The notes under the pieces: generated by a model
What the model saw: only the letters and a program-made list of their open reading frames with translations
Database searches by the model: none
What the model was told of the DNA's origin: nothing
From: an uncultured bacterium
GTDB lineage: Bacteria > Omnitrophota > Omnitrophia > Omnitrophales > Abzuiibacteriaceae
DNA length: 64,000 bases
Assembly: GCA_964387845.1 (NCBI GenBank)
Contig: CAYLXA010000008.1
Span: 32,001 to 96,000 of the forward strand
Reading direction: 5' to 3'
Shown here: positions 11,666 to 55,718 of the stretch, one piece after another
Layout of the letters: each line of letters begins with the position of its first letter
Position numbering within the stretch: position 1 is the first letter of the stretch
Program-made: the position numbers and the translations under genes

Positions 11666-11758
11666 GGGGTAAGTGGTAAGTGATAAGCGATGGGGTTAAT
11701 TTTCAAAAGTAGTTTTTATACTTACCACTTGGCCCTTACCACTTACAACTGAATAATC

Positions 11759-24505: not shown

Positions 24506-24507
24506 CC

Positions 24508-35715: not shown

Positions 35716-38700
35716 GTGCGCAAAAAGCCATTTTTCATCAAAGCAATTGCCCTAGCGCTTTGCTTTACTTTTATCGCTACCGATACCATCGCTTATTCCG
35801 ACGCAGCTCAGACATCTCCGCAACTGGCGGAGATGCTGAAGCAGTCCTCGAACTGGTTGAGTTTGAGGGCCGCTACCATTTCGGGACTTTTCCGCAACGC
35901 CGCACCTTCTGTTTCCGGTACGCGTTTACCTGCCGCAGCTCCCAAGTTCGCCCGTTACTTGTCAGAACTTCGAAATGAAGCCAATGAAAAACCGGTTACG
36001 GCTGACTACATATCCGCTCAAACAATTCAGAATCAAAAAACCAATGAAATTACGCCTCCGCCTCAATCTGAATTACGCCAAGAGAAGCCCAGATTTAAAT
36101 CGCGGCACAGCTTTTTTAACCATGCCATACAGTTAAGCCGCAACTTATTCAAGCTTTCAGAGTGGAAACACCGGATTTTGAGATTGTCCAGCAGCTTCGG
36201 AAACCTTCCAGATGACATTCTGTTTCTAGTTACAACTCTTCCCATATTGATCGGAATATTGATAGTGGATGCTCTTGATAATTTTCATGATAACCCCAAA
36301 ACAAACGCAAGAATATGGTTCTGGGTTGTTACGAGTTCAGCGGTGTGGCTCTTCTCAGTGTTAACTGCCAATGTTGTTTTATTCAGATTTCAGAAACCTG
36401 CAAAAAGAAAATTGCCGGCAAAATCTGATCAGAAAGTTCAACGATCTGAATTGCGCGGCCATTCGGGCGTAGGGAGTTATGTCATTGGCGATTTGGAATT
36501 TAATAAAGGTGATCCAACCGGCTTTGAATTGATTAAACGGTTGATCGGAGAAGTAAGAGCAGGTCTTTTAACCGGCGAACTTCAAAAAGCCGGCTTGGAT
36601 CAAGATTCTATTTCACATATATTCCGGCTTGCTTCTTCGCCTAGTAAAAGTGCGCGCGAGCCAATTGGTTTCAAATACAGTGAAGCGGCCGGTCAGTTTG
36701 AGCTGATTAAAAATGATTTGCGCACCTATCTTCATCAGCTTCAGAAAACACAAAATCATGATCACGAAATCAATGTTTATGCGCTTGGGTTAGGCAATCT
36801 TCCGGTTGAAGCAGAGGAAGTCATCAAGTTGTTTCTGAACGTCATGGAAGAGGAGCTTGGCGAAGCAGCCAAAAATTGGTCTTTTAATTTTATCGGAATT
36901 GATTTTCAAGACGAACCCATCAAAGTCGCGCGAAAATACTTTGCAGAAGATATGGCTTCTCTAAAAGAAAAAGGATTCCGGAAAGTCACTTTACAAGCTG
37001 TGAAGGCAAACGCACTGTCATCTTCAGAGCTGACGCGGGTATTTGAAGAAACGGGTGGCTCTAAGAAAGCAGACTATTTATTTCATCGGCATGTGATGTA
37101 TGTAAACCGTGCTTCAAGTTGGTTAAATCAGCTTCGAGGCCTCACTCCTATCACGATGTTACGGCCTGTGCTTGCTGACGCGTTGGAGTCGTACCTTCAA
37201 TCACAGAATTTGATCGGCGCATTTACAAAAACAGGTACACGTTATGTTATTGAACCTCTCGCCAGCTCAGACCCAAGCATACGGGAAGTTGTCATTCCGG
37301 GATCCAGCGTTTTGCCGCAGGAAAATGGCGCAGCCGGCAGCGGGATTTATATTGTGAATGACCCCGCCGTTTTTACAGCAACCGGCTTCATTCAATATCT
37401 CCAGGATCAGCTTGGAGAAAATTTCTCCATCTCCGGCCCTCTTCGGGTCGATCGGACTGGAGGCCGGGGAGAGCTGCGCCGGGCTTCGAATTTTCATTTT
37501 GTAAACACAGTACGCAGAGTGTTGCGGCGGGAAATCGCCCAAATAGAAAAAGACAAGTGGCAAAACTGGGCAGTTGGTTTTGAGCCTGTGCAAGATGTTG
37601 CAAGCCACCTTGTCCGCGGTGCAAAGGGCGAGCTATGGATTCATTTGCACTTAACCTACCACGGACATGATAAACGTGCTCGTTTCGCCGAAAATGGCGT
37701 CTATGACTTGGGATTGCTTTTCCGGATAACCGATCGAGAGAATCAATTAACTCTTGATGCCCCCATGATTGAACCGCAAATAGGCCGGTCTGACTATTTT
37801 GCTTTTACACGCGCCGAAACGGTGCTTTCTTCCGAGCAGGCGGCCCGGCTTGTGAAGGAGGGAACGGAATTTGTCAATTCGCACGCCGGTCCGATCCGCA
37901 GTGCAATGCGTCTTGCCAAGAAAAAACCGAGCTCAATTCATAATCTATTGGGCCGTGCAGTATCGCCCCGGCACGCACGAGGCCTTTACAACATGATGAC
38001 ATTAGGGCATGAGGAAAAGCGTGTGATTGACCGTACAAAAAGGCGCTCGGTTACTTATCGGTTTGTGGGCAGCCGGCGAAGCGAGCTGCGTCAAAAATCG
38101 GAATTAGATTCGGCCCGAGAGTTTGTGGCTCACGCTATCCAAACCGGCCAATTGAAATTAGATCTGTTTGATCGGGGAAGGGAGCCTGCAAAACAAATTC
38201 TTCAGGAAGTTTTAGCTGAAAATCAAAAGCGAAAAACGGATCATATTCAAGAAGTCGAAACCGCAAGGCACAAAATAGCAACTTTCGAATCAAGGTTCAA
38301 AAAAATCCGTGATGAAATTGATTTTGACCCGTTTAAACCTCTGGCGCCGACGGAGCAGGAAAAAATCATGGAATGGTGGGCTGATGACCTGTACATGATG
38401 GAATATGAAATCAGAAATTATTTAGCCGAAATTCAGTCGGGGCAGCATCCGTTTTCAGGAAACGAATTGGATCAAGTAGTGGATGCTTTAATAGCCGCTT
38501 ACCGGTGGAGTATGGATGTTGTTGCTTTTTTTGAAAAACAAAAAGCAGAACTATTATTCTTTCGAAATCAAGAGACCACCGACAGCGAAGAGTCGGCCGA
38601 TACCATGGCGGCACTTTCAGGCGCATTTTCAGTTTTAGCCGACATCAAATCTCCGCGCGGACAAATCCCGGAAAATGTTTTTTTTGCCATAGCTGCAACC

Positions 38701-41700
38701 AAGCGCCACAAAGCGAAAGAATTTTTACTTTCTGTTCTTCGTGAGATTGGTTTCGATAAAACAAAATCCGAAACCCAGAAAATCGTGAGAGGAAGGGCGC
38801 TTAATTATCTGTTTGCCCACTTTCACAGCTCGGAACTTGCAGCACTGGCCCGGCAGGCAATTGAAAATTTAGGCAGAGAGCAAAGATTTGATTACGATGG
38901 CTGGGCATTTGATAGCGCGTTCATGGAACTTTTGCCTTATCTCGGAGATGAGAATGTTAAAGCGTATATTTTTAATTACTTAAAAGATGATTTTCAATTC
39001 GGAAAAGCTCTCGAAGCTGGGAACTGTTTGGAATACTTGCTGTTCGATTTAGAAACCGCGGAGGTCCCGGGTTGGTTTAAGGAGCGCTTGCAGATTTATT
39101 CGGAAAAAAATGCAGCGGCTATGGATGATTTTGGAATTACGGAAAATCAGGAAGCCTATTTAAATCGAATTAAAAAATTAAATGATTTTCTAGCTCTAAA
39201 AGAAGCCGGAATCGGGCTGCCGTCTTATCAATTTTCAAAATACGTTTTTCGGCCTATTCATTCACAGGATGAAATAGACACACTGCGCAAAATGAGCGGT
39301 TCATTTCCCGGACGACGCCCTGGTTGGAGCCCATGGGATATGACCGATTTTGTATTGGAAGATAGCAAGACCCGTCAAATTGTCGGAGGCGGCATGATTT
39401 CGGAGCATGACTACGACACAGAAGCGCACCATATTCATCTTGTTGCTCTGAGTGACCAGCTGCAAGGCCGGGATAGGGCAGATGCGTTTGTGTTTATTCT
39501 CGCCGGCATGTTGCAATCCATGTCGCCAAAAATCAAAGGCCGGAAAGTTGTTTGGCGCACATGGGTAAAAGATATTCTGGAAAAGACACTCGCGCTTGAT
39601 TTGGCGGGCGTTGATTTAGAACCTCTCATCAATCAAAACCCTGATGATGCACGCTCGGAATTGCTCAGTAAGCCTGAATCGCAGAATCCTATCCTCGAAA
39701 TCAATCAAGATTGGCGAAACATTTTTGATGACAACGCAAAACCGCTGGTGGTGGATGTCGGGTTCGGAAACGGAGAAACACTGCTTTACCGAGCACAGCA
39801 CGAGCCGGACAAAAATTTCATCGGTATCGAACTTCCCGAAGAGCCGTATGCGGATATGCTGGCTGAAAGGATTCAAACAGTGGGAATCAAAAACCTAAAA
39901 GTCCTCAAAGTGGCTGATTTTGAGGCATTTCGCACTCAACTCAAATTCGGGAACCAAGCAATCGTTTCAGAGCTAACTTATTACGATCCGTTTCCGGATA
40001 GTCCTTATGTATTTAGAGAACATACCGCTGATTTACAGCAAATTTTAAAACCCGGCGCGCTCGTTAAAATCATGGTTTTTGAACACGAATTTTGGCAAGA
40101 ACTGTCCGGCATTTTTGAATCCAACGGATTTCAAACGCTAAATCCTGCCGACCATGTTTTTGAGGATAATCATGATACGCAGGATTCAAATGAGGCATTT
40201 AGCACTCAACTGAAACTTATTTTCCGATGGCCCGGTCTATCATCAAATCGTTCCGAATTGCGCCAAGACCTCAAAATTCAGACGATTCTAAACGATATTG
40301 CCCAAAGCAGATTGATTTCGGAGAATCAGCCGGAAACTCGGTCTTTTTTTAATAGAATTTCGGATCGGTTAAAACAAAAATCAGTTTCCCAAACTTTCTT
40401 TTTGACCGGATTGTTACTTTCATCTTATGTCTATATTTTATTCGAGCGCTGGCTTGCTGCCGAGCCGGTCGAATCGAATGCTCAAGAAATAGCTGCCGCC
40501 ATTTTACTATTGGGCATTATTTCTACGATTTTTACCACGATCGTTAAGAGAATGAATAAGTCTAGTACATCCTGGCGCTGGGATGTTATTAGCTTTTCGG
40601 AAAATCAAATCATAGAAGATGCATTGACTTTTCTGGACCCTCACAAACATCAATTAAATCCCAATGTGGATATTATTGTTGAGAAAAGAAGCCACAGGTT
40701 TAAGCGTATTGCCATCGGATTTTTCAAAGAAAGTTTAAAAAATCTTGGCGCCGGTGCAATGTTTTTATTGATAGGAGGCTTTTTAGCTTGGAAAATTGGA
40801 TACGGCCTTCTTGATTTGTACAAGCAAGACCTGCACGCTGCATTTAAAGTCCCTGTCTATGGCATATTCGGCGCGGGGCTGATTGTGTTTGGTTTTGTGG
40901 GCATGATGGGATTTACCGTGCTTTTTCTATCTCCGTTCATTGCTCTTATGCAGGCTTGGGATGGAGAGTTTTCAGATAAGGGAATCGAGGACCAAAGAAT
41001 TTTTGTCCAGCACCAAGAATCCGAAGATGTTTTTTACGAGACGCTAGTTGAAGAATTAAATCACCGTTTCAAACTCCGCCGAGAGCCGCTTCCGGAGTTT
41101 CCAAAAACACTGGATGGTTTGCGGCTCGCCATGATACTCAAACGCTACGGCCTCCCCGGCAGTGAAATTGCGAATCGTTCCGCCTCCGGCCTCCTCCGGG
41201 TCTTGCGCCCTGAAGGGTCAGAGACCGCAGACCGTAACGCTCTCCGAGCCAACGGCTCGATGGAGCCGAGGGCACGGGGGGAACTTCGGCAGTCGGAACC
41301 TCGGAAGATGAGCAGGGCTGAGCTCGCCTCTTTATTCAGGGCGCAGCTACGCGAGGCGAATTTCATTGCATCGATACCGGTGTTGATACAACACGTATGG
41401 AATGTAATCGCCAAATTAGCAAAGCCCCTCAACTTCCAGTTTCGCGAACTAGGCCTAACGCAAGAGCTCCTCCGTTTGCAGACAGGGTTTTGGATCACCC
41501 GATTTGGGCCTGAAGACCGGATGTGGTGGGGACTCCGCGACGGCATGAAGTTCGGAGATACCGTTAATTGGTGGGGGCCTAAACAAAAAAGACCGGAGCC
41601 CCTGGGTTTTCATACCGGGATTGATTTTGTGATGTATCAAAATTTTCAAAAGGCCTGGAAAACAATTCCGGAAGGAACCGAAGTGCAGGCACTCTACGGA

Positions 41701-44700: not shown

Positions 44701-47700
44701 TCAAAAATTCACCGGATTACGGTGCGCGTACCGGAAGAGCAGAGTTTTCCGCTTCGCGGTATTGAAATTCTAGCACGCGAATTAATTGAGAATCCATCCG
44801 CTGAACAGCAGTTTGATCTTGTTTACAATGAGAAAGGACATTTGTTGGCTGTATTTCCCGTTTTTGGAAATGAAAATAGGGCCGCTGCGGAGGATGGCTT
44901 ATTTCTTGATGTCAGTCCGTACTATTTTGAAGTTCCGAAGGACATTCGAGGAGAGTCGAAACTCCTGATAGATCAATTTTTGCGCGAGTGGAGACAAAAC
45001 CAACAGCATATCCAAGCCTATCAAAAAAAGCATTTCGGTTCTAATCGGATGAATTTCTGGCATTTTAGTTATAACAATGACGAAAATAATGATGAAGATA
45101 ATAAAGAGGAGCCTCTTTATCAGTTTTATCATTTACTTCATAGTCACGGCCATGATCTTAGTTATTTGGGGGAAGTTGAAGTTCAATCTTTGGAGCATAT
45201 TTTTTACTACGTTAGTAAAGATCCGGATAGGAAAATGTTATTGTTACCAATTTTCCCAACGGTCTTCCCGCCATCCGGCGATCCCCAGCACGACACGGAA
45301 TATCATAAGGCTATTTTGATCGATCCCAGATTTGATTTAAATGAGAATCAGCGGACTCTTGTGGTAGGTTCCGGAAGCGGATTTGACACATGGCTTGTTT
45401 CCCTCAAAACACGCAAGACCGTGAGTGTAATTGACATTAATCCACTGGCGGTAGCCAACACAAAAGCGCTTGCGAAAATTGCAGGCTTCAAAGTTTTAGC
45501 TAGAACGGCTGACAATATCGTCGATGAAAGCGGAAAGCCCACTTTTCCAGATGCCCGGTTTGATCGAATTATTTGGAATATGCCCGAGCATGTTGAAGGT
45601 GATGGGCCCAGCCACGGGCAATTAGCAACCCAAAGGACCAAGTGGTATTTAACAGATCATTGGGATGGCGACGTCGATGGTTTCAGCTTGACCCGGTTTG
45701 CTTCAGGGCTTTGCGACATTTTAAATCCTGACTCGCGCGTTTTAATTTGGAATTCGAATAACGAAGATTCAATTTTGAATGCCTTTGAAAACCGCGGCAT
45801 GGAAGTTGAACGTGCAGGCCTCAATTATCGGTACAGTTTGTATTTTATTCAACCATCTGCCGCTGCAGGCGAGCTTTTGGAACCGATTTCTAACTCTGCA
45901 GATCAACGAAGCGAACCTCAAAAACACATTGCCGTGCTTCAACGGTTCAAGCACAATCCGACCGGATTTATGGGGTGGCTCAAGAACGAAATCGCCGAAG
46001 TTTTGACAATCATTGACATGCCGAGCGGTCAGTTTATGAAACTGCCTGATGCGGAAAGAAGGAAGAAAAATCAACGTATTGAAAACGCAATTTCCATGCT
46101 TTACGGCGTAGAAGATTTTATTTCGGCTAAAGATGCGGCAAAAATTATCAAGAATATTGACGAGGCACGCCGCATGTTGGACGAGATTTACCAAATGTCC
46201 GAATGGCGTAAAAATGATTTTTCCGCTATCCGCGGAGGGAAGCAAGATTCCAAACTTCCGGCAAGCACCGAGCAAGCGTGGCACGCACGGGATATTTTTA
46301 ACGAATTTCTTCCGAAAAATGGGCTAGGAGAAGCGCTTCAGAAATACACGGGGGATAAAAAAGTATTGGATACCGCAGCGGAGAAATGGCTGCCTGTTTT
46401 TACGCGCGTTCCGAAACATTTATTCATGCCGAAATATTTGCGGCAGGATGCTTATTTGCATGATGCGCCGTACCGAATCGGTTATGGCCAGACAATCTCA
46501 CAACCGTCTCTGGTTGCATTTATTCTGGCGCTGCTTGATTTAGAGCCCTCGGATGAAGTTTTGGAAGTCGGCGCAGGCAGCGGATGGTTGGCCGCGCTGA
46601 TGTCGCAGCAAGCGGCGCATGTCTATGCGACAGAACTCATTCCGCAGCTTGCGGGCCGTGCGGAGCGGGTGATTGAGAATATGGGAATTCAAAATGTCAG
46701 CATTGTTGAAGCCGATGGTTCGGTTGGTTATCCACAGGCGGCTCCGTTCGATAAAATCGTCGTTTCAGCCGGCAGCCCCAATGTTCCGGAACTGCTTGTG
46801 AACCAGCTCCGCGAAGGAGGCTTGCTGATCATTCCGGTTTTGGATCCTGCAGCGTCAAAAAAGCAGAAGTCTTACAAGCTGACATTATTTGTGAAAGAAG
46901 GCGGTAAATTGACAGAAAAACTTGCCATCGATAGGGTTAATTTTGTTGATCTGCGCGGTGTGCACGGTTGGCAGCCGGCGCCAAAACGTTCCGAGCTTCG
47001 CCGAGCCGCACAGCCGAAAGATTCAAACAGTGAAAAATCAACGCCGAAGCCCGAGACCGAGTCAGACCGGCGCATCATCCGGGCAGTTAATTATTTTCTG
47101 AAAGAAAAGAGGCCATTCAATCAAGGCGATATCGCCAAAAAAGCAAGAGTCAGCTTGCAAACGGTTACAAACCGGAAGCACGCAAATCCGTCGATCGCTC
47201 GGTTTGTTGATTGGGCCCTGGAGAAAGCGCCTAAGGCTGAGCCTAAATCCGTTCAAGCTCTAATCCGGGCCGCAAAGCAGTTGAAAAAAGAAGGAAAATC
47301 GGGCGTGACCAATTCAGTTGTTGCGGACCTAGCCGGTTATCATCCACAAACCGTTACCAGCATAAGCAAGTTATATCCTAAGGTAAAACAAGCTGTGCAG
47401 GGGGCGCGTCAATCTCCGCACGCACAGATTTCTCCCACGATTCAGAAAGTTGTGGATGTTATTAAAGCGGCCGCGAAGAAAAAACAAGTGTTTCAAAACG
47501 AAGGCCAAATCGCGCAAGCAGCCGAAATCAGGCCTGAAACGTTGAGCCGGATTAAGAAGCGGCGGTCCTCCTATCGGGAACCATTTCTCCAACTGCTTCA
47601 ATACGCCGTAAGCGACCCGGACCGTGCGCTTGAGATCATTAAAAAACACTTCTCGATTCATTCCGAACAGCGGGTTTCTGTCCAAGCATCCGCTCAAGAC

Positions 47701-50700
47701 GAGAACTTGAGGTCGGAACTACGGGCTGACGGTGCTATCCAAGATCCGGGCATGGTCGTTACGGCTTTGATCGGGGTAGCCGCATTCGGAATCCTGATTT
47801 TTGGTTTTGATTCAGTCCGAGAGCGGGCATTTAAAGTTGGAAGTGCTGCACTCAAATTGATCCGCCGACTCTTCTGGCTATGGACCGGTGTTTTGTGGAT
47901 TTCCACCCATTTGGCTTACGCTGCTCATCGTGTCCGCCCGGATTCTCAAGATAAAATTTACCAAGCAACAGGTTTTGACCCCGGCGATCTAAATTATTCA
48001 GAGTTTTTGTATCCATGGGCTATTTTTACCGTGTTTATTTATCCCGTTGCCGCGTTCGGCTTGATGCGTTACCTGAATCGCTTGGTCATGCGCCGAAACG
48101 TTCTGCCATTCGAAACTTCGCCCTCAAGGTCCATTCCGGCTCACCCTACAACGTCCGAGTTAGATATTAATCGGAAAGTCGGGACGGCCCAGCCTTCCGA
48201 TCAATATTCAAAAGATCCTTTAATGAAAGGCAGGGCTGAACTCAGAGCGTCGGGTTCGAATCCCAAGAAGAAAGACACAAGTAAAGCAACGGACTTGGAA
48301 AAAAGGTTTAAGGAACTTTTGGAAGAGGCAGATAGAACGCTTGAGGCAAACAAACAACTTGAGGATGGACTTGATGAAATCCACAAAGTGCTGCCGGAAT
48401 TACCCAAAGACATCATCGATGGACGCTCCGAGCTGCGCCAATCTGACCCGATTGGCACTGCTTCGGCTTTGCCAGGCCCTCTGGCAAAGTCCGAGCTGCG
48501 CAATTTCTTGCCGAATCAGAACCCGATCAACCGTTTGGACGCCAAGCAAGGTTCCGGAATTGGTGCACGGGGCAACGTTTTGGAAGGCCGTTCCGGATCA
48601 AATTCTGAGTTTTATAATTATCGGGGCGAAAAAGTACTTGTACTGCCGACTAGCACCGCAAAAGGAATATTAGGTTTGGGTGATTTTATCGTTGTGATGC
48701 CACGCCCCAAGCCCGGCACGCAAGATCACATTCTCTTTTATAATTCGTCCGGCAGTTTGTTGTTTGAAGCAGTGAACGTTTCAGACTATTCGTTAGTAGG
48801 AGAAAATATGGCCATTAAATTTGCCAACGGCAATATCCAGTTTTATGACAAGACAGGCAAGAAGCTACTTAGTTCATTCGATCATTTTTCAAACTTTCAC
48901 CCAAGCCAAATTGACTTACAGGGCGATTTATTGGTATTTAAAAAATCAAGCAATGAGGTTGGTTTTTATAATTCGACAGGTTCACTTATTTTACGAAAGT
49001 CAAAAGGCACTGATTTTGACAGTTTTTATGTGAAAGGTTCATTTATCGTATTGGTTAAAAAAGATAATCACCATGTCTACAGTGGGCTTACAGGTAAGCT
49101 GATTGCAAAAACCCAGGCAAGCGTGGGTGAAACCGCGCAATTTGACGGCGACTTTTTTGCTGTGGTTAATTGGAATGAATTTACATTCTATAATCTTCAA
49201 GGGAAAAAAATTCTTGAGAAACGAACAGGTTCAGGTGACGATAATTTTATTAACTGGTCCGGCGAAGGCGGCCTTTTGACTTTTGATAAAACACATTCCC
49301 GGACGTTTTACGATGAAAACGGGAAGTTATTAGCTGCCATCCAAAAGCGTGTATTCGCTTCCAGAGTTGTCAACAAAGTGTTGCGCTTAGAAGACAACGC
49401 TGATTTTTATGAATGGTACGATTTCAGCCCTAATGCGTTATCGGCGTCTTCAAAAGGACAAAAATCGCTTGATCAAATTTTTAGCCATAACCCGGCCATG
49501 CTCTCGCGGATCCGGGATTATGTAAAAAGAAGGTACGATAATCCGCTCATGTCGCGCGAAGAGCCGAACCACGATCTTTCATCCGACCTGGATGACGCAT
49601 CGAATTTGATTCAATTGGAAAAAATGCCAACCGAATGGATTGACGACCTCTCATCCTTGGTTTTAACCGGTTACAATCCGTCGGACAAGGGCGCGCGTTC
49701 AATTTTAAAGGAAGCCGCGATTCAGCTTGGATTGATTCAAGCTCCGTCATCTCAAACGAAAGAAGCGGTTCCCATTACCTATAACCAAAAAGCGCTTATG
49801 CGGATCTTAAGCAGCGGTGTCATTACGGAAGCCATCCGAAACGGGCAATTTTCCTTTCCAACAACAGGTAAGAGAAGTAGTCTTATTTTTCTTTCTGACG
49901 ATGGAACCAATGTAAAGAGGATTGATGAAACGGATTCTGCTAAAGCCAACGTGCAGCTCGAATTTTATCTGTCGAGCGATAATCGCACAGTGGGTGTGTC
50001 CATCAGTGTCCGAGATGATAATAAGGCAAGTGGGTGGCGAGTACAGCATGAAGAACCTAAGCAACTCAAAGATCTTCAGACATCCATTGAACCTGCAAGC
50101 TCGAAACCCTCGTTGACTATTGTTAGCGCGAGAAAACAACGCACCCTTGATGAATTGATAAACAAAGTGAGCAAGTTCCCAGGTTGGAGCAATCCTGGCC
50201 CTTCAACATATTCTTTCGCTCATCAGGCAACGCAGATATCTGCTTTCTATACCGGAATTGTCCCTAACTTGCAACCACGCTGGGCATGGCATTTAAAAGT
50301 GATCTCGTCTGGTTATAACCTAAGCGTTGTTGTTGAAGATCATATTCAATCGCCAGGGAAATGGATAACGGTAGTTAAATTTAATAACTCCGGAAGTAAT
50401 AATTCTGTGGCCTCGCAAGAATGGGGTAACCATCTGATCGATATTGAACAAAATGGTTTAAAAACAAATATCTACATGACGAAGGCTTATGTGGATTCTT
50501 TGGTCAAAAACAGAATCCCGCTTAAAGGTGCAACTATAGATGGAGTTGAGTGGGAATTTATTCCGATCAATCCGAAACAAATTCTTCCGGCAAAATCAGA
50601 ATTGAGAACCCAAGCAGAGCAGGTTTCTATAGAAACGCTGGATGCGGCGCTTTCGGTGGAGCCCAAAGCACAAAACAGGTTGGATGCCGTCATTCATGAA

Positions 50701-51261
50701 ATCCGGAATAATTCATCAAGTGCCGTACGTTCAGAATTAAAAGTTCAGAGCGAGAAATTGGTTCAATTTTTAACCGGCGGACAAAATAGAGCCACGTCAT
50801 TGTCGGGCACTGCCGAAGCTGCCAACGCGCGCTCGGCGTTTGTCTTTTTGCCCGGAACCACCAATGAGCTGGGCGCTGTTTTTAACCAGATTACAGAAGC
50901 TCTTGCCGCCAAAAGCGAATTGAGAGCCGAAATCATTGCTTACGTGGATGGCCCGTTGATGGCGCGCACAATCCGTGAAATCATCCTCGGTGTTCAGGGC
51001 GCTGAGCGTGTCCATATCGTGGCGAGTAATGAAGAGGCCGTGGCTAAAGCTCAGTCTCTAAACGTTGCGCATGCACATTTGATCGGATGGGAGGGGGAGC
51101 TTGAAGCGCCGTTTGTCCAAAATTTGGAGGACAGCTACCTGAAGCTCGGTATTCGCGTGGTGAAGAAAAATGTAAGTGATTTCATGAGTTTTCTCGGGCG
51201 TGAGGCCGCTCGTTTTATCCAAGGATGGAAATCAGCAGTTCTCTACGCCAAATCCGCATAA
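35716..51261 (+). CDS. giant multidomain secreted/membrane protein (5181 aa): signal peptide, 4 TM clusters, two class-I SAM-MTase folds, M23 peptidase, protein-L-isoaspartate O-methyltransferase domain, 3x HTH, beta-repeats; ~18 [RK][SGA]EL[RK] linker motifs
   Basis: Single uninterrupted ORF of 15.5 kb. GTG start with a signal-peptide-like N-terminus (MRKKPFFIKAIALALCFTFIATDTIAYS). Domain motifs are listed as separate features. Confidence 0.9.
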   Translation: MRKKPFFIKAIALALCFTFIATDTIAYSDAAQTSPQLAEMLKQSSNWLSLRAATISGLFRNAAPSVSGTRLPAAAPKFARYLSELRNEANEKPVTADYISAQTIQNQKTNEITPPPQSELRQEKPRFKSRHSFFNHAIQLSRNLFKLSEWKHRILRLSSSFGNLPDDILFLVTTLPILIGILIVDALDNFHDNPKTNARIWFWVVTSSAVWLFSVLTANVVLFRFQKPAKRKLPAKSDQKVQRSELRGHSGVGSYVIGDLEFNKGDPTGFELIKRLIGEVRAGLLTGELQKAGLDQDSISHIFRLASSPSKSAREPIGFKYSEAAGQFELIKNDLRTYLHQLQKTQNHDHEINVYALGLGNLPVEAEEVIKLFLNVMEEELGEAAKNWSFNFIGIDFQDEPIKVARKYFAEDMASLKEKGFRKVTLQAVKANALSSSELTRVFEETGGSKKADYLFHRHVMYVNRASSWLNQLRGLTPITMLRPVLADALESYLQSQNLIGAFTKTGTRYVIEPLASSDPSIREVVIPGSSVLPQENGAAGSGIYIVNDPAVFTATGFIQYLQDQLGENFSISGPLRVDRTGGRGELRRASNFHFVNTVRRVLRREIAQIEKDKWQNWAVGFEPVQDVASHLVRGAKGELWIHLHLTYHGHDKRARFAENGVYDLGLLFRITDRENQLTLDAPMIEPQIGRSDYFAFTRAETVLSSEQAARLVKEGTEFVNSHAGPIRSAMRLAKKKPSSIHNLLGRAVSPRHARGLYNMMTLGHEEKRVIDRTKRRSVTYRFVGSRRSELRQKSELDSAREFVAHAIQTGQLKLDLFDRGREPAKQILQEVLAENQKRKTDHIQEVETARHKIATFESRFKKIRDEIDFDPFKPLAPTEQEKIMEWWADDLYMMEYEIRNYLAEIQSGQHPFSGNELDQVVDALIAAYRWSMDVVAFFEKQKAELLFFRNQETTDSEESADTMAALSGAFSVLADIKSPRGQIPENVFFAIAATKRHKAKEFLLSVLREIGFDKTKSETQKIVRGRALNYLFAHFHSSELAALARQAIENLGREQRFDYDGWAFDSAFMELLPYLGDENVKAYIFNYLKDDFQFGKALEAGNCLEYLLFDLETAEVPGWFKERLQIYSEKNAAAMDDFGITENQEAYLNRIKKLNDFLALKEAGIGLPSYQFSKYVFRPIHSQDEIDTLRKMSGSFPGRRPGWSPWDMTDFVLEDSKTRQIVGGGMISEHDYDTEAHHIHLVALSDQLQGRDRADAFVFILAGMLQSMSPKIKGRKVVWRTWVKDILEKTLALDLAGVDLEPLINQNPDDARSELLSKPESQNPILEINQDWRNIFDDNAKPLVVDVGFGNGETLLYRAQHEPDKNFIGIELPEEPYADMLAERIQTVGIKNLKVLKVADFEAFRTQLKFGNQAIVSELTYYDPFPDSPYVFREHTADLQQILKPGALVKIMVFEHEFWQELSGIFESNGFQTLNPADHVFEDNHDTQDSNEAFSTQLKLIFRWPGLSSNRSELRQDLKIQTILNDIAQSRLISENQPETRSFFNRISDRLKQKSVSQTFFLTGLLLSSYVYILFERWLAAEPVESNAQEIAAAILLLGIISTIFTTIVKRMNKSSTSWRWDVISFSENQIIEDALTFLDPHKHQLNPNVDIIVEKRSHRFKRIAIGFFKESLKNLGAGAMFLLIGGFLAWKIGYGLLDLYKQDLHAAFKVPVYGIFGAGLIVFGFVGMMGFTVLFLSPFIALMQAWDGEFSDKGIEDQRIFVQHQESEDVFYETLVEELNHRFKLRREPLPEFPKTLDGLRLAMILKRYGLPGSEIANRSASGLLRVLRPEGSETADRNALRANGSMEPRARGELRQSEPRKMSRAELASLFRAQLREANFIASIPVLIQHVWNVIAKLAKPLNFQFRELGLTQELLRLQTGFWITRFGPEDRMWWGLRDGMKFGDTVNWWGPKQKRPEPLGFHTGIDFVMYQNFQKAWKTIPEGTEVQALYGGTVVSVFQDDMQSTLVVNQEITDTDGGNTLVTIYAHIEPETNVQPGVKIEAGDVLGRIRRSRNERSIVSPHLHLSIGWAKPEFFERLKSDGVDWPFVDALAKEGLLTYVDPLTFLDKNEADHFFMNAQHNKLKKILILNTQPGAQFFLTRQVIEKQFPGVTTLAVRSFEEAQKILNDPSSEIDAVVRVDESASISFPRKYLKRTAVLDYQEKNKREFLRQLHVVNVIGRLYHEPISRLNIRYRLQRRIRQAGIRTVGQLVDLANLPKKFRKFTTGLSKVPEGLERRLQGSRYKDEIIRAIVSVQPQAILTRSILHRRSLGFFQMAYRLTFGFEYHPETRNFAELILFLNGLSGSVFKELVKQFDVHIQTDLIDILQRVARIAPEAISVNVLEMFIDDEETPKRMRENFNTLADLIHMARNDTKRFKEIFGYQISWHVLLLLLEILYDAVPGEIMWQEWPDLVHTVLNPHNLPRTFGSGGLSGHINAYSAAIQAHWRRLMAEHKGYAKRKDRSELRQAGDRQIFQRAFQGIAFGGYGAGLIAATWQMLTVYPQMLRPSLFVILLTWNFYQIVKLILKQPFVSQEKINQEKYINRQLIITHLPQLGLIKAHMLAPWLEAFMQAPEVGALFLTVSGLLVSKLAFDSYLRNDGRASGRSELRTNDPEEPNAKNPRTSTYETIISNRPQMNPTESNTEQASLFMAPLENVTPDAVRWLDRVFNSRLPKGQYVFVGVVVDRKSKDIQAFQDGVYMIAKFLEVGGAFEEIGLNEIKNKKLRRRITAVGKGSSVRVIEFASVGGGDDYEIPLRRLQGVVEDYYSNEPIVWIPISPEGELSSTLGWKPKNRAFHLTLVHQAPEQEPEARSELRNDGGIILEAGQQIKAVEGYQMQLQENGSVAFYRERLSSPEPDPVEVVKPTMAGMPVYDEAGNIMGYVGITHDFEGQGEDRKLIARTAFYPEPEFDIEKTHVPSTWPAWELLKAVGLLIPKEDAHILKIEDISQTSDSKIHRITVRVPEEQSFPLRGIEILARELIENPSAEQQFDLVYNEKGHLLAVFPVFGNENRAAAEDGLFLDVSPYYFEVPKDIRGESKLLIDQFLREWRQNQQHIQAYQKKHFGSNRMNFWHFSYNNDENNDEDNKEEPLYQFYHLLHSHGHDLSYLGEVEVQSLEHIFYYVSKDPDRKMLLLPIFPTVFPPSGDPQHDTEYHKAILIDPRFDLNENQRTLVVGSGSGFDTWLVSLKTRKTVSVIDINPLAVANTKALAKIAGFKVLARTADNIVDESGKPTFPDARFDRIIWNMPEHVEGDGPSHGQLATQRTKWYLTDHWDGDVDGFSLTRFASGLCDILNPDSRVLIWNSNNEDSILNAFENRGMEVERAGLNYRYSLYFIQPSAAAGELLEPISNSADQRSEPQKHIAVLQRFKHNPTGFMGWLKNEIAEVLTIIDMPSGQFMKLPDAERRKKNQRIENAISMLYGVEDFISAKDAAKIIKNIDEARRMLDEIYQMSEWRKNDFSAIRGGKQDSKLPASTEQAWHARDIFNEFLPKNGLGEALQKYTGDKKVLDTAAEKWLPVFTRVPKHLFMPKYLRQDAYLHDAPYRIGYGQTISQPSLVAFILALLDLEPSDEVLEVGAGSGWLAALMSQQAAHVYATELIPQLAGRAERVIENMGIQNVSIVEADGSVGYPQAAPFDKIVVSAGSPNVPELLVNQLREGGLLIIPVLDPAASKKQKSYKLTLFVKEGGKLTEKLAIDRVNFVDLRGVHGWQPAPKRSELRRAAQPKDSNSEKSTPKPETESDRRIIRAVNYFLKEKRPFNQGDIAKKARVSLQTVTNRKHANPSIARFVDWALEKAPKAEPKSVQALIRAAKQLKKEGKSGVTNSVVADLAGYHPQTVTSISKLYPKVKQAVQGARQSPHAQISPTIQKVVDVIKAAAKKKQVFQNEGQIAQAAEIRPETLSRIKKRRSSYREPFLQLLQYAVSDPDRALEIIKKHFSIHSEQRVSVQASAQDENLRSELRADGAIQDPGMVVTALIGVAAFGILIFGFDSVRERAFKVGSAALKLIRRLFWLWTGVLWISTHLAYAAHRVRPDSQDKIYQATGFDPGDLNYSEFLYPWAIFTVFIYPVAAFGLMRYLNRLVMRRNVLPFETSPSRSIPAHPTTSELDINRKVGTAQPSDQYSKDPLMKGRAELRASGSNPKKKDTSKATDLEKRFKELLEEADRTLEANKQLEDGLDEIHKVLPELPKDIIDGRSELRQSDPIGTASALPGPLAKSELRNFLPNQNPINRLDAKQGSGIGARGNVLEGRSGSNSEFYNYRGEKVLVLPTSTAKGILGLGDFIVVMPRPKPGTQDHILFYNSSGSLLFEAVNVSDYSLVGENMAIKFANGNIQFYDKTGKKLLSSFDHFSNFHPSQIDLQGDLLVFKKSSNEVGFYNSTGSLILRKSKGTDFDSFYVKGSFIVLVKKDNHHVYSGLTGKLIAKTQASVGETAQFDGDFFAVVNWNEFTFYNLQGKKILEKRTGSGDDNFINWSGEGGLLTFDKTHSRTFYDENGKLLAAIQKRVFASRVVNKVLRLEDNADFYEWYDFSPNALSASSKGQKSLDQIFSHNPAMLSRIRDYVKRRYDNPLMSREEPNHDLSSDLDDASNLIQLEKMPTEWIDDLSSLVLTGYNPSDKGARSILKEAAIQLGLIQAPSSQTKEAVPITYNQKALMRILSSGVITEAIRNGQFSFPTTGKRSSLIFLSDDGTNVKRIDETDSAKANVQLEFYLSSDNRTVGVSISVRDDNKASGWRVQHEEPKQLKDLQTSIEPASSKPSLTIVSARKQRTLDELINKVSKFPGWSNPGPSTYSFAHQATQISAFYTGIVPNLQPRWAWHLKVISSGYNLSVVVEDHIQSPGKWITVVKFNNSGSNNSVASQEWGNHLIDIEQNGLKTNIYMTKAYVDSLVKNRIPLKGATIDGVEWEFIPINPKQILPAKSELRTQAEQVSIETLDAALSVEPKAQNRLDAVIHEIRNNSSSAVRSELKVQSEKLVQFLTGGQNRATSLSGTAEAANARSAFVFLPGTTNELGAVFNQITEALAAKSELRAEIIAYVDGPLMARTIREIILGVQGAERVHIVASNEEAVAKAQSLNVAHAHLIGWEGELEAPFVQNLEDSYLKLGIRVVKKNVSDFMSFLGREAARFIQGWKSAVLYAKSA
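39718..40095 (+). other. giant protein domain: class-I SAM-dependent methyltransferase fold (TrmB-like; VVDVGFGNGE...IGIE)
   Basis: aa ~1335-1460; motif I VDVGFGNGE and a post-I acidic residue. Confidence 0.6.
41578..41940 (+). other. giant protein domain: M23 (LytM-type) metallopeptidase
   Basis: aa ~1955-2075; HTGIDF (HxxxD) ... GDVLGRI ... SPHLHLSIGW (HxH). Confidence 0.7.
45328..45750 (+). other. giant protein domain: second class-I SAM-MTase fold (LVVGSGSGFDTW...VIDINP)
   Basis: aa ~3205-3345; glycine-rich motif I and a DxN/P motif. Confidence 0.55.
46423..46875 (+). other. giant protein domain: protein-L-isoaspartate O-methyltransferase (PIMT/Pcm)
   Basis: aa ~3570-3720; IGYGQTISQPSLVAFILALLDLEPSDEVLEVGAGSGWLAALMS closely matches the PIMT consensus (GxTISQP...VLEIGTGSGY). 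Confidence 0.75.
47083..47595 (+). other. giant protein region: three tandem helix-turn-helix-like units
   Basis: aa ~3790-3960; FNQGDIAKKARVSLQTVTN / VTNSVVADLAGYHPQTVTS / QNEGQIAQAAEIRPETLSR. Confidence 0.5.
48613..49395 (+). other. giant protein region: ~5 beta-strand repeats (FY[ND]xxGxLL..., WG-repeat-like)
   Basis: aa ~4300-4560; FYNSSGSLLF, FYDKTGKKLL, FYNSTGSLIL, FYNLQGKKIL, FYDENGKLLA with ~50-aa periodicity. Confidence 0.5.
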
Positions 51262-54755: not shown

Positions 54756-54761
54756 GAACGA

Positions 54762-55718
54762 TTAAGCCGACATGAAGGATTTCTTTTTGTTGGACCTTTT
54801 TGTATCCTCTTTTTTTGATTTGATGACAATCGTATCATTTTCTTGAAGGCCGCTCATGATTTCATAAGAAATATTGTCATCAATTCCGACTTCAATTTCG
54901 CGGGAAGCAGTTTTGGATTTTTCTTTGACCATTACATGCTTTTTATTGCCGCGCTCCTGCACGGCTTCAATTGGAATTAAAAGTGCATTGTCTTTACGCG
55001 CAATTTCGATTTCAACATTGGCGGTCATGCCTGAAGCGAATTGATCGGGAACTTTTTCGGGCAGGATGTCGACTTTATAGATGATGACATTATTGACCGT
55101 TTCGGATTCGTACGCGATATGGTCTACTCTCGATGAAATTTTCAAATCCGGATACGCATCCAGATAAATTACAGCATGCTGGCCGATTTTGACTTGTCCG
55201 ATGTCGGTTTCGTCCACAGACGCTTTCACAATTAAGCGGTCGGCAAGAACGAGCACCACGTCGCTTGTATTCACGGTTTGGCCCGGCTCAACACGGCGGA
55301 CAATCACCGTACCGTCAATCGGCGCAAGGAGCGGCGTGGGTTTGTAAACATTCTGCCAGTCCGTACTTTGTTCGCCGCCATTTCCCTGAAGATGCATCGC
55401 ATCCAAAAGCACGACACGGTCTGTGGAGCTCATCCAAGCCAGGATTTCACCTTTTTTAACTTCGCGGCCTTCTTTGACAAGAACATCGTCGATACGGCCT
55501 GCGACAGGCGGTTTAATTTCAAGTCTGTTTTGCGGTTTCACTTCGCCGGTCGCTGTGATGGTGACGGTCAAATCGCCGCGCGTTACTTTGATTTGCTTCT
55601 CAACTTCTTTGCTATCTTTTTCAGATAGTTTTCCGCTGACGATGCGGAAGCCTGCGAAAGCGATCAGTAAAACGACCAGAATTTTAATGGGTGTTAATTT
55701 AAGATTGCCGGAAGCCAT
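54762..55718 (-). CDS. macA: efflux pump periplasmic adaptor (MacA/HlyD family)
   Basis: N-terminal TM anchor, coiled-coil/lipoyl/beta-barrel pattern. Start taken at ATG 55718 (MASGNLKLTPIKILVV...), giving a 20-nt overlap with the tolC-like stop; the track start is 55763. Confidence 0.8.
   Translation of the reverse strand: MASGNLKLTPIKILVVLLIAFAGFRIVSGKLSEKDSKEVEKQIKVTRGDLTVTITATGEVKPQNRLEIKPPVAGRIDDVLVKEGREVKKGEILAWMSSTDRVVLLDAMHLQGNGGEQSTDWQNVYKPTPLLAPIDGTVIVRRVEPGQTVNTSDVVLVLADRLIVKASVDETDIGQVKIGQHAVIYLDAYPDLKISSRVDHIAYESETVNNVIIYKVDILPEKVPDQFASGMTANVEIEIARKDNALLIPIEAVQERGNKKHVMVKEKSKTASREIEVGIDDNISYEIMSGLQENDTIVIKSKKEDTKRSNKKKSFMSA

What the first reader, a model, noticed from the sequence alone, without database searches (positions are those of the whole stretch)
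36064..50925. About 18 copies of an [RK][SGA]EL[RK] ('RSELR') peptide motif punctuate the giant protein's linkers
Read from the translation: QSELRQ(aa117), RSELRG(243), RGELRR(585), RSELRQ(788), RSELL(1313), RSELRQ(1512), RGELRQ(1853), RSELRQ(2506), RSELRT(2649), RSELRN(2855), RSELRR(3757), RSELRA(3999), RAELRA(4173), RSELRQ(4237), KSELRN(4258), KSELRT(4960), RSELK(5005), KSELRA(5066). An exact pentapeptide would be expected about 0.002 times by chance in a protein this size. The underlying codons differ from copy to copy (S = tct/agc/tcc/tcg/tca; L = tta/ttg/ctg/ctt/cta/ctc; R = cgc/cgt/cgg/aga). Conservation is therefore at the peptide level, not a DNA repeat. Most copies sit in charged, low-complexity stretches between recognisable domains or just before TM clusters. 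The inference is that they are recognition sites for a dedicated processing protease (polyprotein-like maturation) or a conserved module-boundary/sorting signal. I know of no described motif of this form.
Basis: seen in the sequence. Interest (0 to 1): 0.85.

Follow-up and report, generated by a model that had tools for sequence, protein, structure and literature searches.

The report
Linker punctuation motif in Omnitrophota giants
The RSELR peptide that recurs through this 5,181-residue bacterial protein is real. It is one genome's version of a motif (Arg-Ser/Ala/Pro-Glu-hydrophobic-Arg) that marks the joints between enzyme-sized modules in giant proteins across the phylum Omnitrophota, and it gives the first concrete candidate sites at which these proteins might be cut into pieces.

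Summary
Observation confirmed. The ORF 35716-51261 (5,181 aa) holds 9 exact RSELR (0.01 expected) and 16 [RK][SGA]EL[RK] (0.115 expected). They occur only in the coding frame and with varied codons. The other 42 ORFs of the window hold none, but the next large ORF (61001-) holds two.

The organism is an Omnitrophota bacterium. In 80 Omnitrophota loci (1.24 Mb), R-S-E-x-R is the most over-represented gapped word in ORFs of 1,000 aa or more (268 against 5.6 expected). It stays near chance in ORFs under 600 aa.

The motif is an island of conservation in unalignable, hydrophilic linkers, with a median spacing of 341 aa. It sits where stand-alone homologues begin or end: PCMT here, UDP-glucose dehydrogenase and a histidine phosphatase elsewhere.

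Each genome uses its own version (RSELR 17/17, RPE[AS]R, RSE[VM]R, or [AG]xSLG instead). This implies one trans-acting reader per genome.

A sister giant shares only the N- and C-terminal caps plus one relocated module that starts at the motif.

The likeliest role is a site-specific processing site of a polyprotein. Cleavage is inferred, not shown. A possible reader is the TIKI/RRSP-like domain at the N-terminus of the neighbouring ORF and of many Omnitrophota giants. I found no description of the motif in the searchable literature.

The parts
35716..51261 (+). Giant ORF, 5,181 aa. It has an N-terminal signal or anchor helix, about 9 hydrophobic helices, and five Pfam-detectable modules separated by long unannotated stretches.
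   Evidence: It is identical to database protein P0022 except for the start residue.
35716..35967 (+). N-terminal cap (aa 1-84), shared at 46% identity with the sister giant P0024
36064..36078 (+). QSELR (aa 117), a degenerate copy
36442..36456 (+). RSELR (aa 243)
37465..37479 (+). RGELR (aa 584)
38077..38091 (+). RSELR (aa 788)
39652..39666 (+). RSELL (aa 1313), a degenerate copy about 10 aa before the TrmB-like methyltransferase module
39694..40173 (+). TrmB-like SAM methyltransferase module (aa 1327-1486)
40249..40263 (+). RSELR (aa 1512), at the projected C-terminal end of the TrmB-like module
41275..41289 (+). RGELR (aa 1854)
41665..41928 (+). Peptidase M23 domain (aa 1984-2071)
43231..43245 (+). 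RSELR (aa 2506), 46 aa before a hydrophobic helix
43660..43674 (+). RSELR (aa 2649)
44278..44292 (+). RSELR (aa 2855). It is the first residues of a roughly 100-aa module that recurs at a different position (aa 4781-4882) in the sister giant P0024, where it also starts at RSELR.
44272..44574 (+). Relocated module (aa 2853-2953), 32% identical to P0024 4781-4882
45313..45816 (+). HemK/MTS-like methyltransferase module (aa 3200-3367)
46381..46971 (+). Complete protein-L-isoaspartate O-methyltransferase (PCMT) module (aa 3556-3752), 42-48% identical to stand-alone 204-270 aa enzymes
46987..47001 (+). RSELR (aa 3758). It starts 6 aa after the '..GW' at which stand-alone PCMTs end.
47710..47724 (+). 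RSELR (aa 3999), 14 aa before a hydrophobic helix
48232..48246 (+). RAELR (aa 4173)
48424..48438 (+). RSELR (aa 4237)
48487..48501 (+). KSELR (aa 4258)
50593..50607 (+). KSELR (aa 4960)
50728..50742 (+). RSELK (aa 5005)
50911..50925 (+). KSELR (aa 5066). It lies inside the conserved C-terminal domain, aligned to 'NSREE' in P0024, and is probably not a linker site.
50545..51258 (+). Conserved C-terminal tail domain (aa 4944-5181), ending ..AKSA. It is shared with P0023, P0024 and P0025 and resembles the [KQ][AS]A-ending tails of other Omnitrophota giants.
61001..64000 (+). Second large ORF ('ORF2'; full length 1,564 aa = P0001, cut by the window end). It has a signal peptide, a TIKI/EreA/ChaN-like domain, motif copies, then TM helices.
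61238..62635 (+). TIKI/EreA/ChaN-like domain of ORF2 (aa 80-545). Invariant residues are D108-x-H110, E139, R495 and H520. It is a candidate reader or protease.
   Evidence: Foldseek was not significant.
62831..62845 (+). RSEIR (ORF2 aa 611)
62876..62890 (+). RSELR (ORF2 aa 626), in a low-confidence segment between the N-terminal domain and the TM helices

Best explanation
RSELR is this genome's version of a short linear peptide motif, R-[S>A>P]-E-[L/V/A/M/S/T]-R, flanked by small residues upstream and acidic residues downstream. The motif punctuates the linkers between enzyme-sized modules of long, multi-module proteins throughout the phylum Omnitrophota.

Shown: the motif is selected at the peptide level, marks module boundaries, and is uniform within a genome while differing between genomes.

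Inferred, step 1: all copies in a cell are read by one trans-acting protein whose specificity drifts, and the sites follow it.

This would be polyprotein maturation, as in viral polyproteins or MARTX toxins. The standard junction would also let modules be swapped between giants.

Inferred, step 3 (weakest): a candidate reader is the TIKI/RRSP-like domain, with an intact His/acid/His constellation, that opens the neighbouring ORF2 and many Omnitrophota giants. It would act in cis on its own protein and in trans on this giant.

The confidence of 0.5 is for the statement including the protease step. That the motif is a functional boundary mark read at the peptide level I would put near 0.9.
For: Enrichment:
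- 9 RSELR against 0.01 expected, in frame only.
- In 80 Omnitrophota loci, RSExR occurs 268 times in ORFs of 1,000 aa or more against 5.6 expected (48-fold). It is the top gapped 4-mer (z = 119) and occurs in 63 of 89 long ORFs. ORFs under 600 aa hold 6 against 2.25 expected.

Boundary position:
- Stand-alone PCMTs end 0-9 aa after '..GW', and the giant's RSELR starts 6 aa after it.
- RSEVR ends 8 aa before profile position 2 of a complete UDP-glucose dehydrogenase in P0004.
- The His_Phos_1 domain in L035 and the intein in L057 are bracketed by motifs.
- No Pfam envelope contains a motif.
- Flanks are depleted in hydrophobic residues (0.283 against 0.323, p = 1.6e-22).
- Spacing has a median of 341 aa and an interquartile range of 206-525 aa, about ordinary protein size.

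Selection as a short linear motif:
- 30-50% of aligned positions keep the motif, while the flanks are only 21% identical and full of gaps.
- Both Arg and the Glu are near-invariant.

One reader per genome:
- JAUYMS01 has 17/17 RSELR with six different Leu codons. JAFGHI01 and CAYSSX01 each have 9/9 with x = L. CAZGID01 has RPE[AS]R in 7 of 9. JAHQRI01 has RSE[VM]R.
- Lineages without RSExR carry [AG]xSLG in the same kind of place.

Module swapping:
- The sister giant P0024 shares only aa 1-84, the last 240 aa, and one module that begins at RSELR in both proteins but sits 1,900 residues apart.

Candidate reader:
- The AF2 model of ORF2 aa 80-545 has pLDDT 85-95.
- D108-x-H110, E139 29 residues later, and H520 are invariant in 93 members. 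This mirrors RRSP's E3900-x-H3902, E3930 and H4030 (PMC6254334).

Literature:
- Published work suspects cleavage of Omnitrophota giants but states that cleavage points are unknown (bioRxiv 10.1101/2023.11.21.568195).
Against: - No cleavage product, neo-terminus or protease activity can be seen with sequence tools.
- The giant itself has no TIKI-like domain, and no protease gene is a conserved neighbour in the 80 loci.
- Foldseek gives no significant PDB match for the ORF2 domain. The TIKI superfamily also contains esterases and haem-binding proteins.
- Several related giants carry the motif 3-5 residues from their C-terminus ('YLARSEVRKAA*'). Cutting there would release nothing.
- AF2 places RSELR-3758 at the start of a short helix with pLDDT 75-82 rather than in clear disorder.
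- Not every module junction has a copy. Giant aa 2856-3757 holds two methyltransferase modules and no motif.
- Synonymous sites are not neutral: the first Arg is CGY in 82% of copies against 42% background, and Ser is TCN in 95%. This hints at an additional constraint at the nucleotide or translation level.
Confidence: 0.5

Rival explanations
1. The motif is a docking or recognition site for a non-proteolytic reader. Candidates are a chaperone or assembly factor, a translocation component, or a modifying enzyme that acts on each module. The giant protein stays in one piece.
For: Everything that argues for a single trans-acting reader applies equally here: strict consensus, genome-specific versions, linker position. 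Copies a few residues from the C-terminus of related giants make more sense as binding sites than as cleavage sites. AF2 predicts a short helix of moderate confidence at RSELR-3758. The giants carry many methyltransferase modules.
Against: Ser is replaceable by Ala (8.7-fold enriched) and Pro (5-fold), so Ser phosphorylation or O-glycosylation is unlikely to be the point. Module spacing that matches the size of free proteins, and placement exactly where free homologues start or stop, fits release of the modules. Free exchange of modules between sister giants suggests the modules work independently.
Confidence: 0.25
2. The peptide motif is the by-product of a nucleotide-level element: a recombination or insertion junction used to assemble and shuffle modules, or an mRNA signal. 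The peptide itself has no reader.
For: Synonymous sites are biased towards a consensus C-CGY-TCC-GAA-NTG-CGG. A module shared with P0024 begins exactly at the motif.
Against: The motif is enriched in one frame only: 268 copies against 6-12 in the other five frames. Leu and the last Arg use all their codons, even in genomes where the peptide is 17/17 identical. The tolerated substitutions S/A/P and L/V/A/M/S/T are classes of amino acids, not of nucleotides. The possible 4-bp hairpin shows no covariation: 0.59 observed against 0.56 expected. A Ser restricted to TCN is what purifying selection with an S/A/P neighbourhood predicts.
Confidence: 0.1
3. The motif is a purely structural linker element, such as a helix start or cap with a salt bridge, that is favoured between domains and has no dedicated reader. 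A related version holds that it is a nascent-chain signal read by the ribosome.
For: Ser followed by Glu and then acidic residues suits a helix N-terminus. AF2 predicts helices starting at the motif in both models.
Against: A generic structural preference would not be near-invariant at four positions. It would not be absent from ordinary multi-domain proteins of the same genomes. It would not switch as a block between genomes (RSELR, RPE[AS]R, [AG]xSLG). The ribosome tunnel is too conserved to explain genome-specific versions.
Confidence: 0.08

Closest known systems
MARTX toxins (multifunctional autoprocessing repeats-in-toxin; Vibrio and relatives)
   Different: No RTX or glycine-rich repeats and no cysteine protease domain were detected. 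MARTX linker sites are little more than a Leu, not a strict five-residue consensus. The modules here are housekeeping-type enzymes (PCMT, TrmB-like, HemK-like, M23). Cleavage is not demonstrated.
Viral polyproteins with protease-specific junction consensus (picornavirus 3C, flavivirus NS3, potyvirus NIa)
   Same: One ORF encodes several protein-sized units. A short consensus recurs at the junctions and co-evolves with the protease, so each lineage has its own version (own knowledge; compare).
   Different: This is a cellular bacterial chromosome with ordinary neighbours. There are dozens of sites per protein and several such proteins per genome.
Gingipain/HagA polyproteins of Porphyromonas gingivalis
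   Same: Bacterial multi-domain precursors cut after Arg (or Lys) at domain junctions into separate catalytic and adhesin pieces (own knowledge).
   Different: There the protease is part of the precursor and its specificity is essentially the P1 residue. The domains are homologous adhesin repeats, not unrelated enzymes. There is no sequence relationship to the proteins here.
Omnitrophota giant proteins, 'Archaeovorin' type (West-Roberts et al. 2023) and 'multi-enzyme metabolic cluster' class (bioRxiv 10.64898/2026.06.07.730766)
   Same: Same phylum. Membrane-associated very long proteins that string together methyltransferases, peptidases and other enzymes between poorly conserved stretches. 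Cleavage is suspected.
   Different: Those studies treat proteins of 30,000 aa or more. They report C39, S8 and SecA-like domains that are not detected here. They describe no junction motif and state that cleavage points are unknown.
Pro-hormone and alpha-factor precursors processed by Kex2/furin-type convertases
   Same: A basic consensus ending in Arg, followed by small and acidic residues, repeated between the units of one precursor (own knowledge; compare).
   Different: That system is eukaryotic and secretory, with a dibasic P2-P1 that is absent here. The units are small peptides rather than enzymes.

Membership tests
Omnitrophota giant proteins ('Archaeovorin' type, West-Roberts 2023) | Encoded by an Omnitrophota genome | tested here: met
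   Homologues of the neighbouring ORF2 are named Candidatus Omnitrophica/Omnitrophota. 80 related loci are nearly all Omnitrophota MAGs.
Omnitrophota giant proteins ('Archaeovorin' type, West-Roberts 2023) | Gene longer than 90 kb (protein of 30,000 aa or more) | tested here: not met
   15.5 kb / 5,181 aa. This is a small relative at best.
Omnitrophota giant proteins ('Archaeovorin' type, West-Roberts 2023) | Many TM helices, plus a mix of methyltransferases, peptidases, glycosyl transferases/hydrolases, NUDIX and SecA-like domains | tested here: inconclusive
   About 9 hydrophobic helices. Three or four methyltransferase modules and an M23 peptidase. No GT, GH, NUDIX, C39, S8 or SecA hit at E <= 0.01.
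Polyprotein with protease-specific junction sites | Several complete, independently foldable protein units in one ORF | tested here: met
   The PCMT module is full length and 42-48% identical to free enzymes. AF2 gives pLDDT above 90 for the fold. TrmB-like and HemK-like modules are present.
Polyprotein with protease-specific junction sites | A recurring consensus located at the unit junctions | tested here: met
Polyprotein with protease-specific junction sites | A cognate protease encoded by the same genome | tested here: inconclusive
   The candidate is the TIKI/RRSP-like domain in ORF2. It is absent from the giant. There is no conserved protease neighbour.
Polyprotein with protease-specific junction sites | Cleavage products observed | not testable with these tools
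   Needs proteomics. The Kizina et al. 2022 paper is not held.
MARTX toxins | N- and C-terminal RTX/glycine-rich repeat regions and an internal cysteine protease domain | tested here: not met
   No such Pfam or NCBIfam hits.
MARTX toxins | Conserved termini with an exchangeable internal module repertoire | tested here: met
   The giant and P0024 share only aa 1-84, the last 240 aa and one relocated module. This is a resemblance in design, not homology.
TIKI / EreA / ChaN superfamily (for the ORF2 N-terminal domain) | Parallel beta-sheet core fold of the superfamily | tested here: inconclusive
   [not shown]
TIKI / EreA / ChaN superfamily (for the ORF2 N-terminal domain) | 2His/2Glu catalytic constellation after the core strands | tested here: met
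   D108-x-H110, E139 and H520 are invariant or near-invariant in 93 members and follow strands E103-108, E134-138 and E512-517. The layout matches RRSP E3900-x-H3902, E3930, H4030, with Asp in place of the first Glu. The two His residues were partly fixed by the regular expression used to collect members.
TIKI / EreA / ChaN superfamily (for the ORF2 N-terminal domain) | Hydrolytic (peptidase or esterase) activity | not testable with these tools
   Needs biochemistry.
C-terminal sorting signals (LPXTG/sortase, PEP-CTERM/exosortase, GlyGly-CTERM/rhombosortase) | Motif near the C-terminus, followed directly by a TM helix and a basic tail | tested here: not met
   The copies are internal and number up to 16 per protein. 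Only 3% have a TM within 30 aa downstream and 15% within 150 aa.
Twin-arginine (Tat) signal | Adjacent Arg-Arg in S/T-R-R-x-F-L-K, at the N-terminus before a hydrophobic stretch | tested here: not met
   The two Arg are separated by three residues, and the motif is internal and repeated.
DNA repeat (REP-like or other interspersed repeat) | Conservation at the nucleotide level on either strand | tested here: not met
   Codons vary. Enrichment is in one frame only. There is no hairpin covariation. A residual synonymous bias remains unexplained.

The most novel reading that the evidence does not exclude
Omnitrophota giant ORFs are true cellular polyproteins, built as chains of exchangeable enzyme or effector cassettes between fixed N- and C-terminal caps. 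Every cassette junction carries a genome-specific 'cut here' code (RSELR, RSE[VM]R, RPE[AS]R, [AG]xSLG). The code is read by a dedicated site-specific endopeptidase, plausibly the TIKI/RRSP-like domain that opens many of these proteins. This would be a bacterial counterpart of viral polyprotein expression and of MARTX effector delivery. It may serve to supply many enzymes in fixed amounts to, or into, a prey or host cell.
Probability: 0.3. Interest if true: 0.92.

Novelty: new variant of a known kind. Interest (0 to 1): 0.8.

Why it matters
Giant ORFs are a hallmark of Omnitrophota, and their function is an open problem. Published work calls them poorly conserved and poorly understood (PMC10066038). 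It also says that the lack of known cleavage points blocked attempts to split them into analysable units (bioRxiv 10.1101/2023.11.21.568195).

A strict five-residue junction mark present about once per 800 residues would help in three ways:
- It gives an objective way to cut these proteins into modules for structure prediction and annotation.
- It turns 'are they cleaved, and where?' into a targeted proteomics question with predicted termini.
- It offers a marker whose genome-specific versions can be correlated with candidate proteases across the roughly 1,900 available genomes.

If cleavage is confirmed, it would establish routine polyprotein expression in a cellular organism.

Tried and rejected
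- Relatives of the giant by close similarity. Scans of genome contigs and metagenome contigs with the giant found nothing. The word-indexed search with aa 788-1855 found nothing. The full HMMER search with aa 3989-5181 found only tail-domain relatives.
- An mRNA or DNA hairpin (CCGC/GCGG) around the motif. The position-specific base frequencies fit, but there is no covariation, so I rejected it.
- P0025 (225 aa, starting MSRLNARAELR) as a free-standing C-terminal module that begins at a motif. The frame is open to the contig edge, so it is a truncated gene call.
- A conserved protease neighbour. Clustering all short ORFs of the 80 loci gave only ordinary genes. The M48 peptidase at 11759-13192 sits next to a LemA gene, which I recall to be a common pairing (own knowledge), and it is 22 kb away.
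- A Pfam-based boundary test on five large relatives. They have too few Pfam hits for a strong statistic: roughly p = 0.002 that no motif would fall in a domain by chance, by my own arithmetic.
- Reading Kizina et al. 2022 for proteomic evidence of fragments. The paper is not held.
- The afdb50 fold library was unavailable.
Full report
**1. The observation**

The window holds one ORF of 5,181 codons, 35716-51261 on the + strand. Three residue numbers are off by one.

- Exact RSELR occurs 9 times against 0.0099 expected from composition.
- [RK][SGA]EL[RK] occurs 16 times against 0.115 expected.
- In 2,000 residue shuffles the maxima were 1 and 3.
- In 1,000 codon shuffles the maximum for RSExR was 2, and the other five frames of the same DNA gave none.
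- SELR is the commonest 4-mer of the protein.
- Nothing outside [A/G]-R-S-E-L-R-[Q] is conserved between copies.
- Codons vary.

The 42 other ORFs of the window (14,463 aa) contain no R[SAG]ExR against 0.46 expected. This rules out a compositional habit of the genome.

The next large ORF (61001 to the window end; 1,564 aa in full, P0001) has RSEIR and RSELR 15 residues apart, plus a third copy beyond the window.

**2. Context and organism**

The neighbours are ordinary chromosomal genes. They include haem biosynthesis, folD, panB, cstA, two histidine kinases, acetyl-CoA synthetase, an aminotransferase, a MacB/HlyD/OEP pump and ispH.

The same DNA is in a Logan assembly of run SRR15237813 and, according to the protein database, in an NCBI record with a 108-kb contig. 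Homologues of ORF2 are named Candidatus Omnitrophica/Omnitrophota.

The giant carries these modules, plus about nine hydrophobic helices:
- a TrmB-like methyltransferase (aa 1327-1486)
- an M23 peptidase domain (1984-2071)
- a HemK-like methyltransferase (3200-3367)
- a complete PCMT (3556-3752)

**3. The motif is phylum-wide**

The ORF2 homologues carry RSEMR, RSEVR, RSEIR, RSEAR, RSETR and RSELR. That is 18 RSExR in 19 proteins against 0.57 expected, while every other permutation of the same residues occurs at most twice.

A scan of one genome per species with the N-terminal domain of this family returned 80 loci (1.24 Mb), nearly all from Omnitrophota MAGs. I counted RSExR in non-overlapping ORFs of these loci:

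| ORF length (aa) | RSExR per 10,000 residues |
|---|---|
| 2,000 or more | 12.7 |
| 1,000-2,000 | 10.6 |
| 600-1,000 | 1.4 |
| 300-600 | 0.63 |
| 100-300 | 0.21 |

- Long ORFs hold 268 copies against 5.6 expected. ORFs under 600 aa hold 6 against 2.25 expected.
- In an unbiased count of gapped 4-mers, 'RSE.R' ranks first (z = 119) and occurs in 63 of 89 long ORFs.
- The other five frames give 6-12 copies.

Position by position:
- The first Arg is essential; Lys is only 2.8-fold enriched.
- Position 2 is Ser, then Ala (8.7-fold), then Pro (5-fold).
- Glu is essential.
- Position 4 is L, V, A, M, S or T.
- The last Arg is essential.

Flanks: small residues at -3 to -1 and at +1 after the motif, acidic residues over the next four positions, and hydrophobic residues depleted throughout.

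**4. It marks module boundaries**

- Stand-alone PCMTs of 204-270 aa, 42-48% identical to the giant's module, end 0-9 residues after a conserved '..GW'. The giant's RSELR-3758 starts six residues after that GW, which is where free enzymes have their stop codon.
- In P0004 an RSEVR ends eight residues before profile position 2 of a complete UDP-glucose dehydrogenase.
- The TrmB-like module of the giant is preceded by RSELL-1313 and followed by RSELR-1512.
- In L035 a histidine phosphatase domain (1327-1529) lies between motifs at 1288 and 1566. In L057 an intein (1976-2356) lies between motifs at 1940 and 2385.
- No Pfam envelope examined contains a motif.
- Spacing between successive motifs has a median of 341 aa and an interquartile range of 206-525 aa.
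- Flanks are less hydrophobic than random positions of the same proteins (0.283 against 0.323, p = 1.6e-22). A TM helix follows within 150 residues about twice as often as by chance, but only for 15% of copies.
- In alignments between long ORFs at 30-45% identity, 34% of motifs face a motif in the partner, although the ten residues on either side are only 21% identical and gappy.
- In the AF2 model of ORF2, the N-terminal domain is confident and the motif-bearing segment 545-760 has pLDDT below 50.
- In the AF2 model of giant aa 3500-3830, the PCMT fold is confident. RSELR begins a short helix at pLDDT 75-82, followed by a low-confidence Pro/Ser/Glu/Lys stretch. The motif is therefore outside the folds but not necessarily disordered.

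**5. Genome-specific versions**

Within a genome the variable positions are nearly fixed:
- JAUYMS01: 17/17 RSELR
- JAFGHI01 and CAYSSX01: 9/9 each with x = L
- this window: x = L throughout
- CAZGID01: RPE[AS]R in 7 of 9
- JAHQRI01: RSE[VM]R
- JBAYGD01: mostly RAE or RPE

In the all-Leu genomes the Leu and last-Arg codons are varied, so this is not gene conversion.

Genome JAJDCD01 (L080) has no RSExR in 7,286 residues of long ORFs. Its top enriched word is A.SLG (8 against 0.21 expected), and the same [AG]xSLG occurs in P0002, P0005 and P0014 after the shared N-terminal domain.

Unrelated linkers that change together within a genome point to one trans-acting reader per genome. This is the strongest argument against a purely structural or ribosomal explanation.

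**6. Modules are exchangeable**

A full HMMER search of 1.84 billion representatives with giant aa 3989-5181 found, apart from the giant itself, only three proteins, and they share only the last 150-240 residues. One of them, P0024 (5,133 aa), is a sister giant. It shares three things with the window giant:
- the first 84 residues (46% identity)
- the tail (29% identity)
- one module of about 100 residues, at giant 2853-2953 and P0024 4781-4882, which begins at RSELR in both

P0024 has 13 copies of [RK][SAGP]ELR.

Related giants also share a tail that ends in [KQ][AS]A. In a few of them the motif lies 3-5 residues from the end ('YLARSEVRKAA*').

**7. A candidate reader**

The N-terminal domain of ORF2 (aa 80-545) has no Pfam, NCBIfam or PDB-sequence match.

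- Its AF2 model has pLDDT 85-95.
- Foldseek gives nothing significant.
- Across 93 members, Q107, A109, H110, E139, G194, F488, Y489, R495 and G517 are invariant, and D108 and H520 nearly so. The two His residues were partly imposed by my selection pattern.
- D-x-H, then Glu 29 residues later, then a distal His, each following a core strand, matches RRSP's E3900-x-H3902, E3930 and H4030. Those residues are needed for site-specific cleavage of Ras (PMC6254334).

The first motif follows this domain in most family members.

Three cautions apply:
- The giant lacks the domain, so it would have to be served in trans.
- Several family members with the domain have no RSExR.
- The superfamily also includes esterases and a haem-binding protein.

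**8. What remains unexplained**

Synonymous sites in the motif are biased:
- The first Arg is CGC or CGT in 82% of copies, against 42% background and 45% in other Arg-Ser pairs.
- Ser is TCN in 95% of copies against 67% background, and TCC in 46%.
- The last Arg is near background.

The CGY preference is not explained. A 4-bp hairpin fits the position-specific base frequencies but shows no covariation.

**9. Interpretation**

Shown:
- a peptide-level, frame-specific motif
- restricted to long multi-module Omnitrophota proteins
- placed at module boundaries
- conserved within diverged linkers
- uniform within genomes and different between them

Inferred:
- one reader per genome
- most probably a site-specific endopeptidase that matures a polyprotein

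The main rival is a non-proteolytic docking site. It is favoured by the C-terminal copies and the predicted helix.

Published work on these proteins suspects cleavage but reports no sites or motif. Full-text searches for the motif strings found nothing relevant. Kizina et al. 2022 could not be read.

**10. Verdict**

I rate it a new variant of a known kind (junction consensus of a polyprotein, MARTX-like design) and of high interest. It converts an open question about Omnitrophota giant proteins into a testable one.

Noticed in passing
[not shown]
   Followed up: yes
window 50545-51258; C-termini of long ORFs in L002-L081: Omnitrophota giants share a C-terminal tail that ends in [KQ][AS]A-stop (KAA, QAA, KSA; here ..LYAKSA). 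Its last residues often read like a worn motif (YLA-RSEVR-KAA, AQSETQKAA). The function is unknown. An Ala-Ala end recalls ssrA-type or secretion signals.
   Followed up: partly
L080 (JAJDCD010000005.1) long ORFs; P0002, P0005, P0014: Lineages that lack RSExR carry a different over-represented linker word, [AG]-x-S-L-G (A.SLG 8 against 0.21 expected in L080). It sits in the same position after the N-terminal domain.
   Followed up: partly
RSExR copies in L002-L081; window motif copies: Synonymous-site bias inside the motif. The first Arg is CGC/CGT in 82% of copies (background 42%), Ser is TCN in 95% and TCC in 46%, and the third base of the x codon is G in 60%. The consensus is C-CGY-TCC-GAA-NTG-CGG. 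There is no hairpin covariation. The bias is weaker in the window giant.
   Followed up: partly
P0024 (5,133 aa) against window 35716-51261: The sister giant has the same signal peptide and tail but an entirely different interior. This implies rapid wholesale turnover of the internal modules between related organisms.
   Followed up: partly
L057:9947-21967 (MHFT01000019.1), aa 1976-2356: An intein splicing domain (PF14890, E = 3.7e-22) almost fills one inter-motif module of a giant ORF, with only about 30 residues between it and the RAEVR on each side.
   Followed up: no
window 52761-57027 (- strand): A MacB-type ABC/permease fusion, a HlyD-family adaptor and an OEP/TolC-like outer-membrane protein lie about 1.5 kb downstream of the giant, beyond an aminotransferase gene and on the opposite strand. 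This may be coincidental, or it may be an export route.
   Followed up: no
L082 (Logan ERR12080971 contig, 1,670 bp), bases 1-824: Database protein P0025 (225 aa, called from a TTG) is the cut-off end of a longer ORF that is open to the contig edge. The upstream frame holds a further LSELR.
   Followed up: yes
window 24352-29217: A contiguous haem-precursor cluster: glutamyl-tRNA reductase, porphobilinogen deaminase, a fused uroporphyrinogen-III methylase/synthase, and ALA dehydratase. It is followed by two histidine-kinase genes.
   Followed up: no
window 11111-13192: A LemA-family gene is directly followed by an M48 (HtpX-like) peptidase gene. It is the only stand-alone peptidase detected among the 40 window ORFs scanned against Pfam, and it is 22 kb from the giant.
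   Followed up: no
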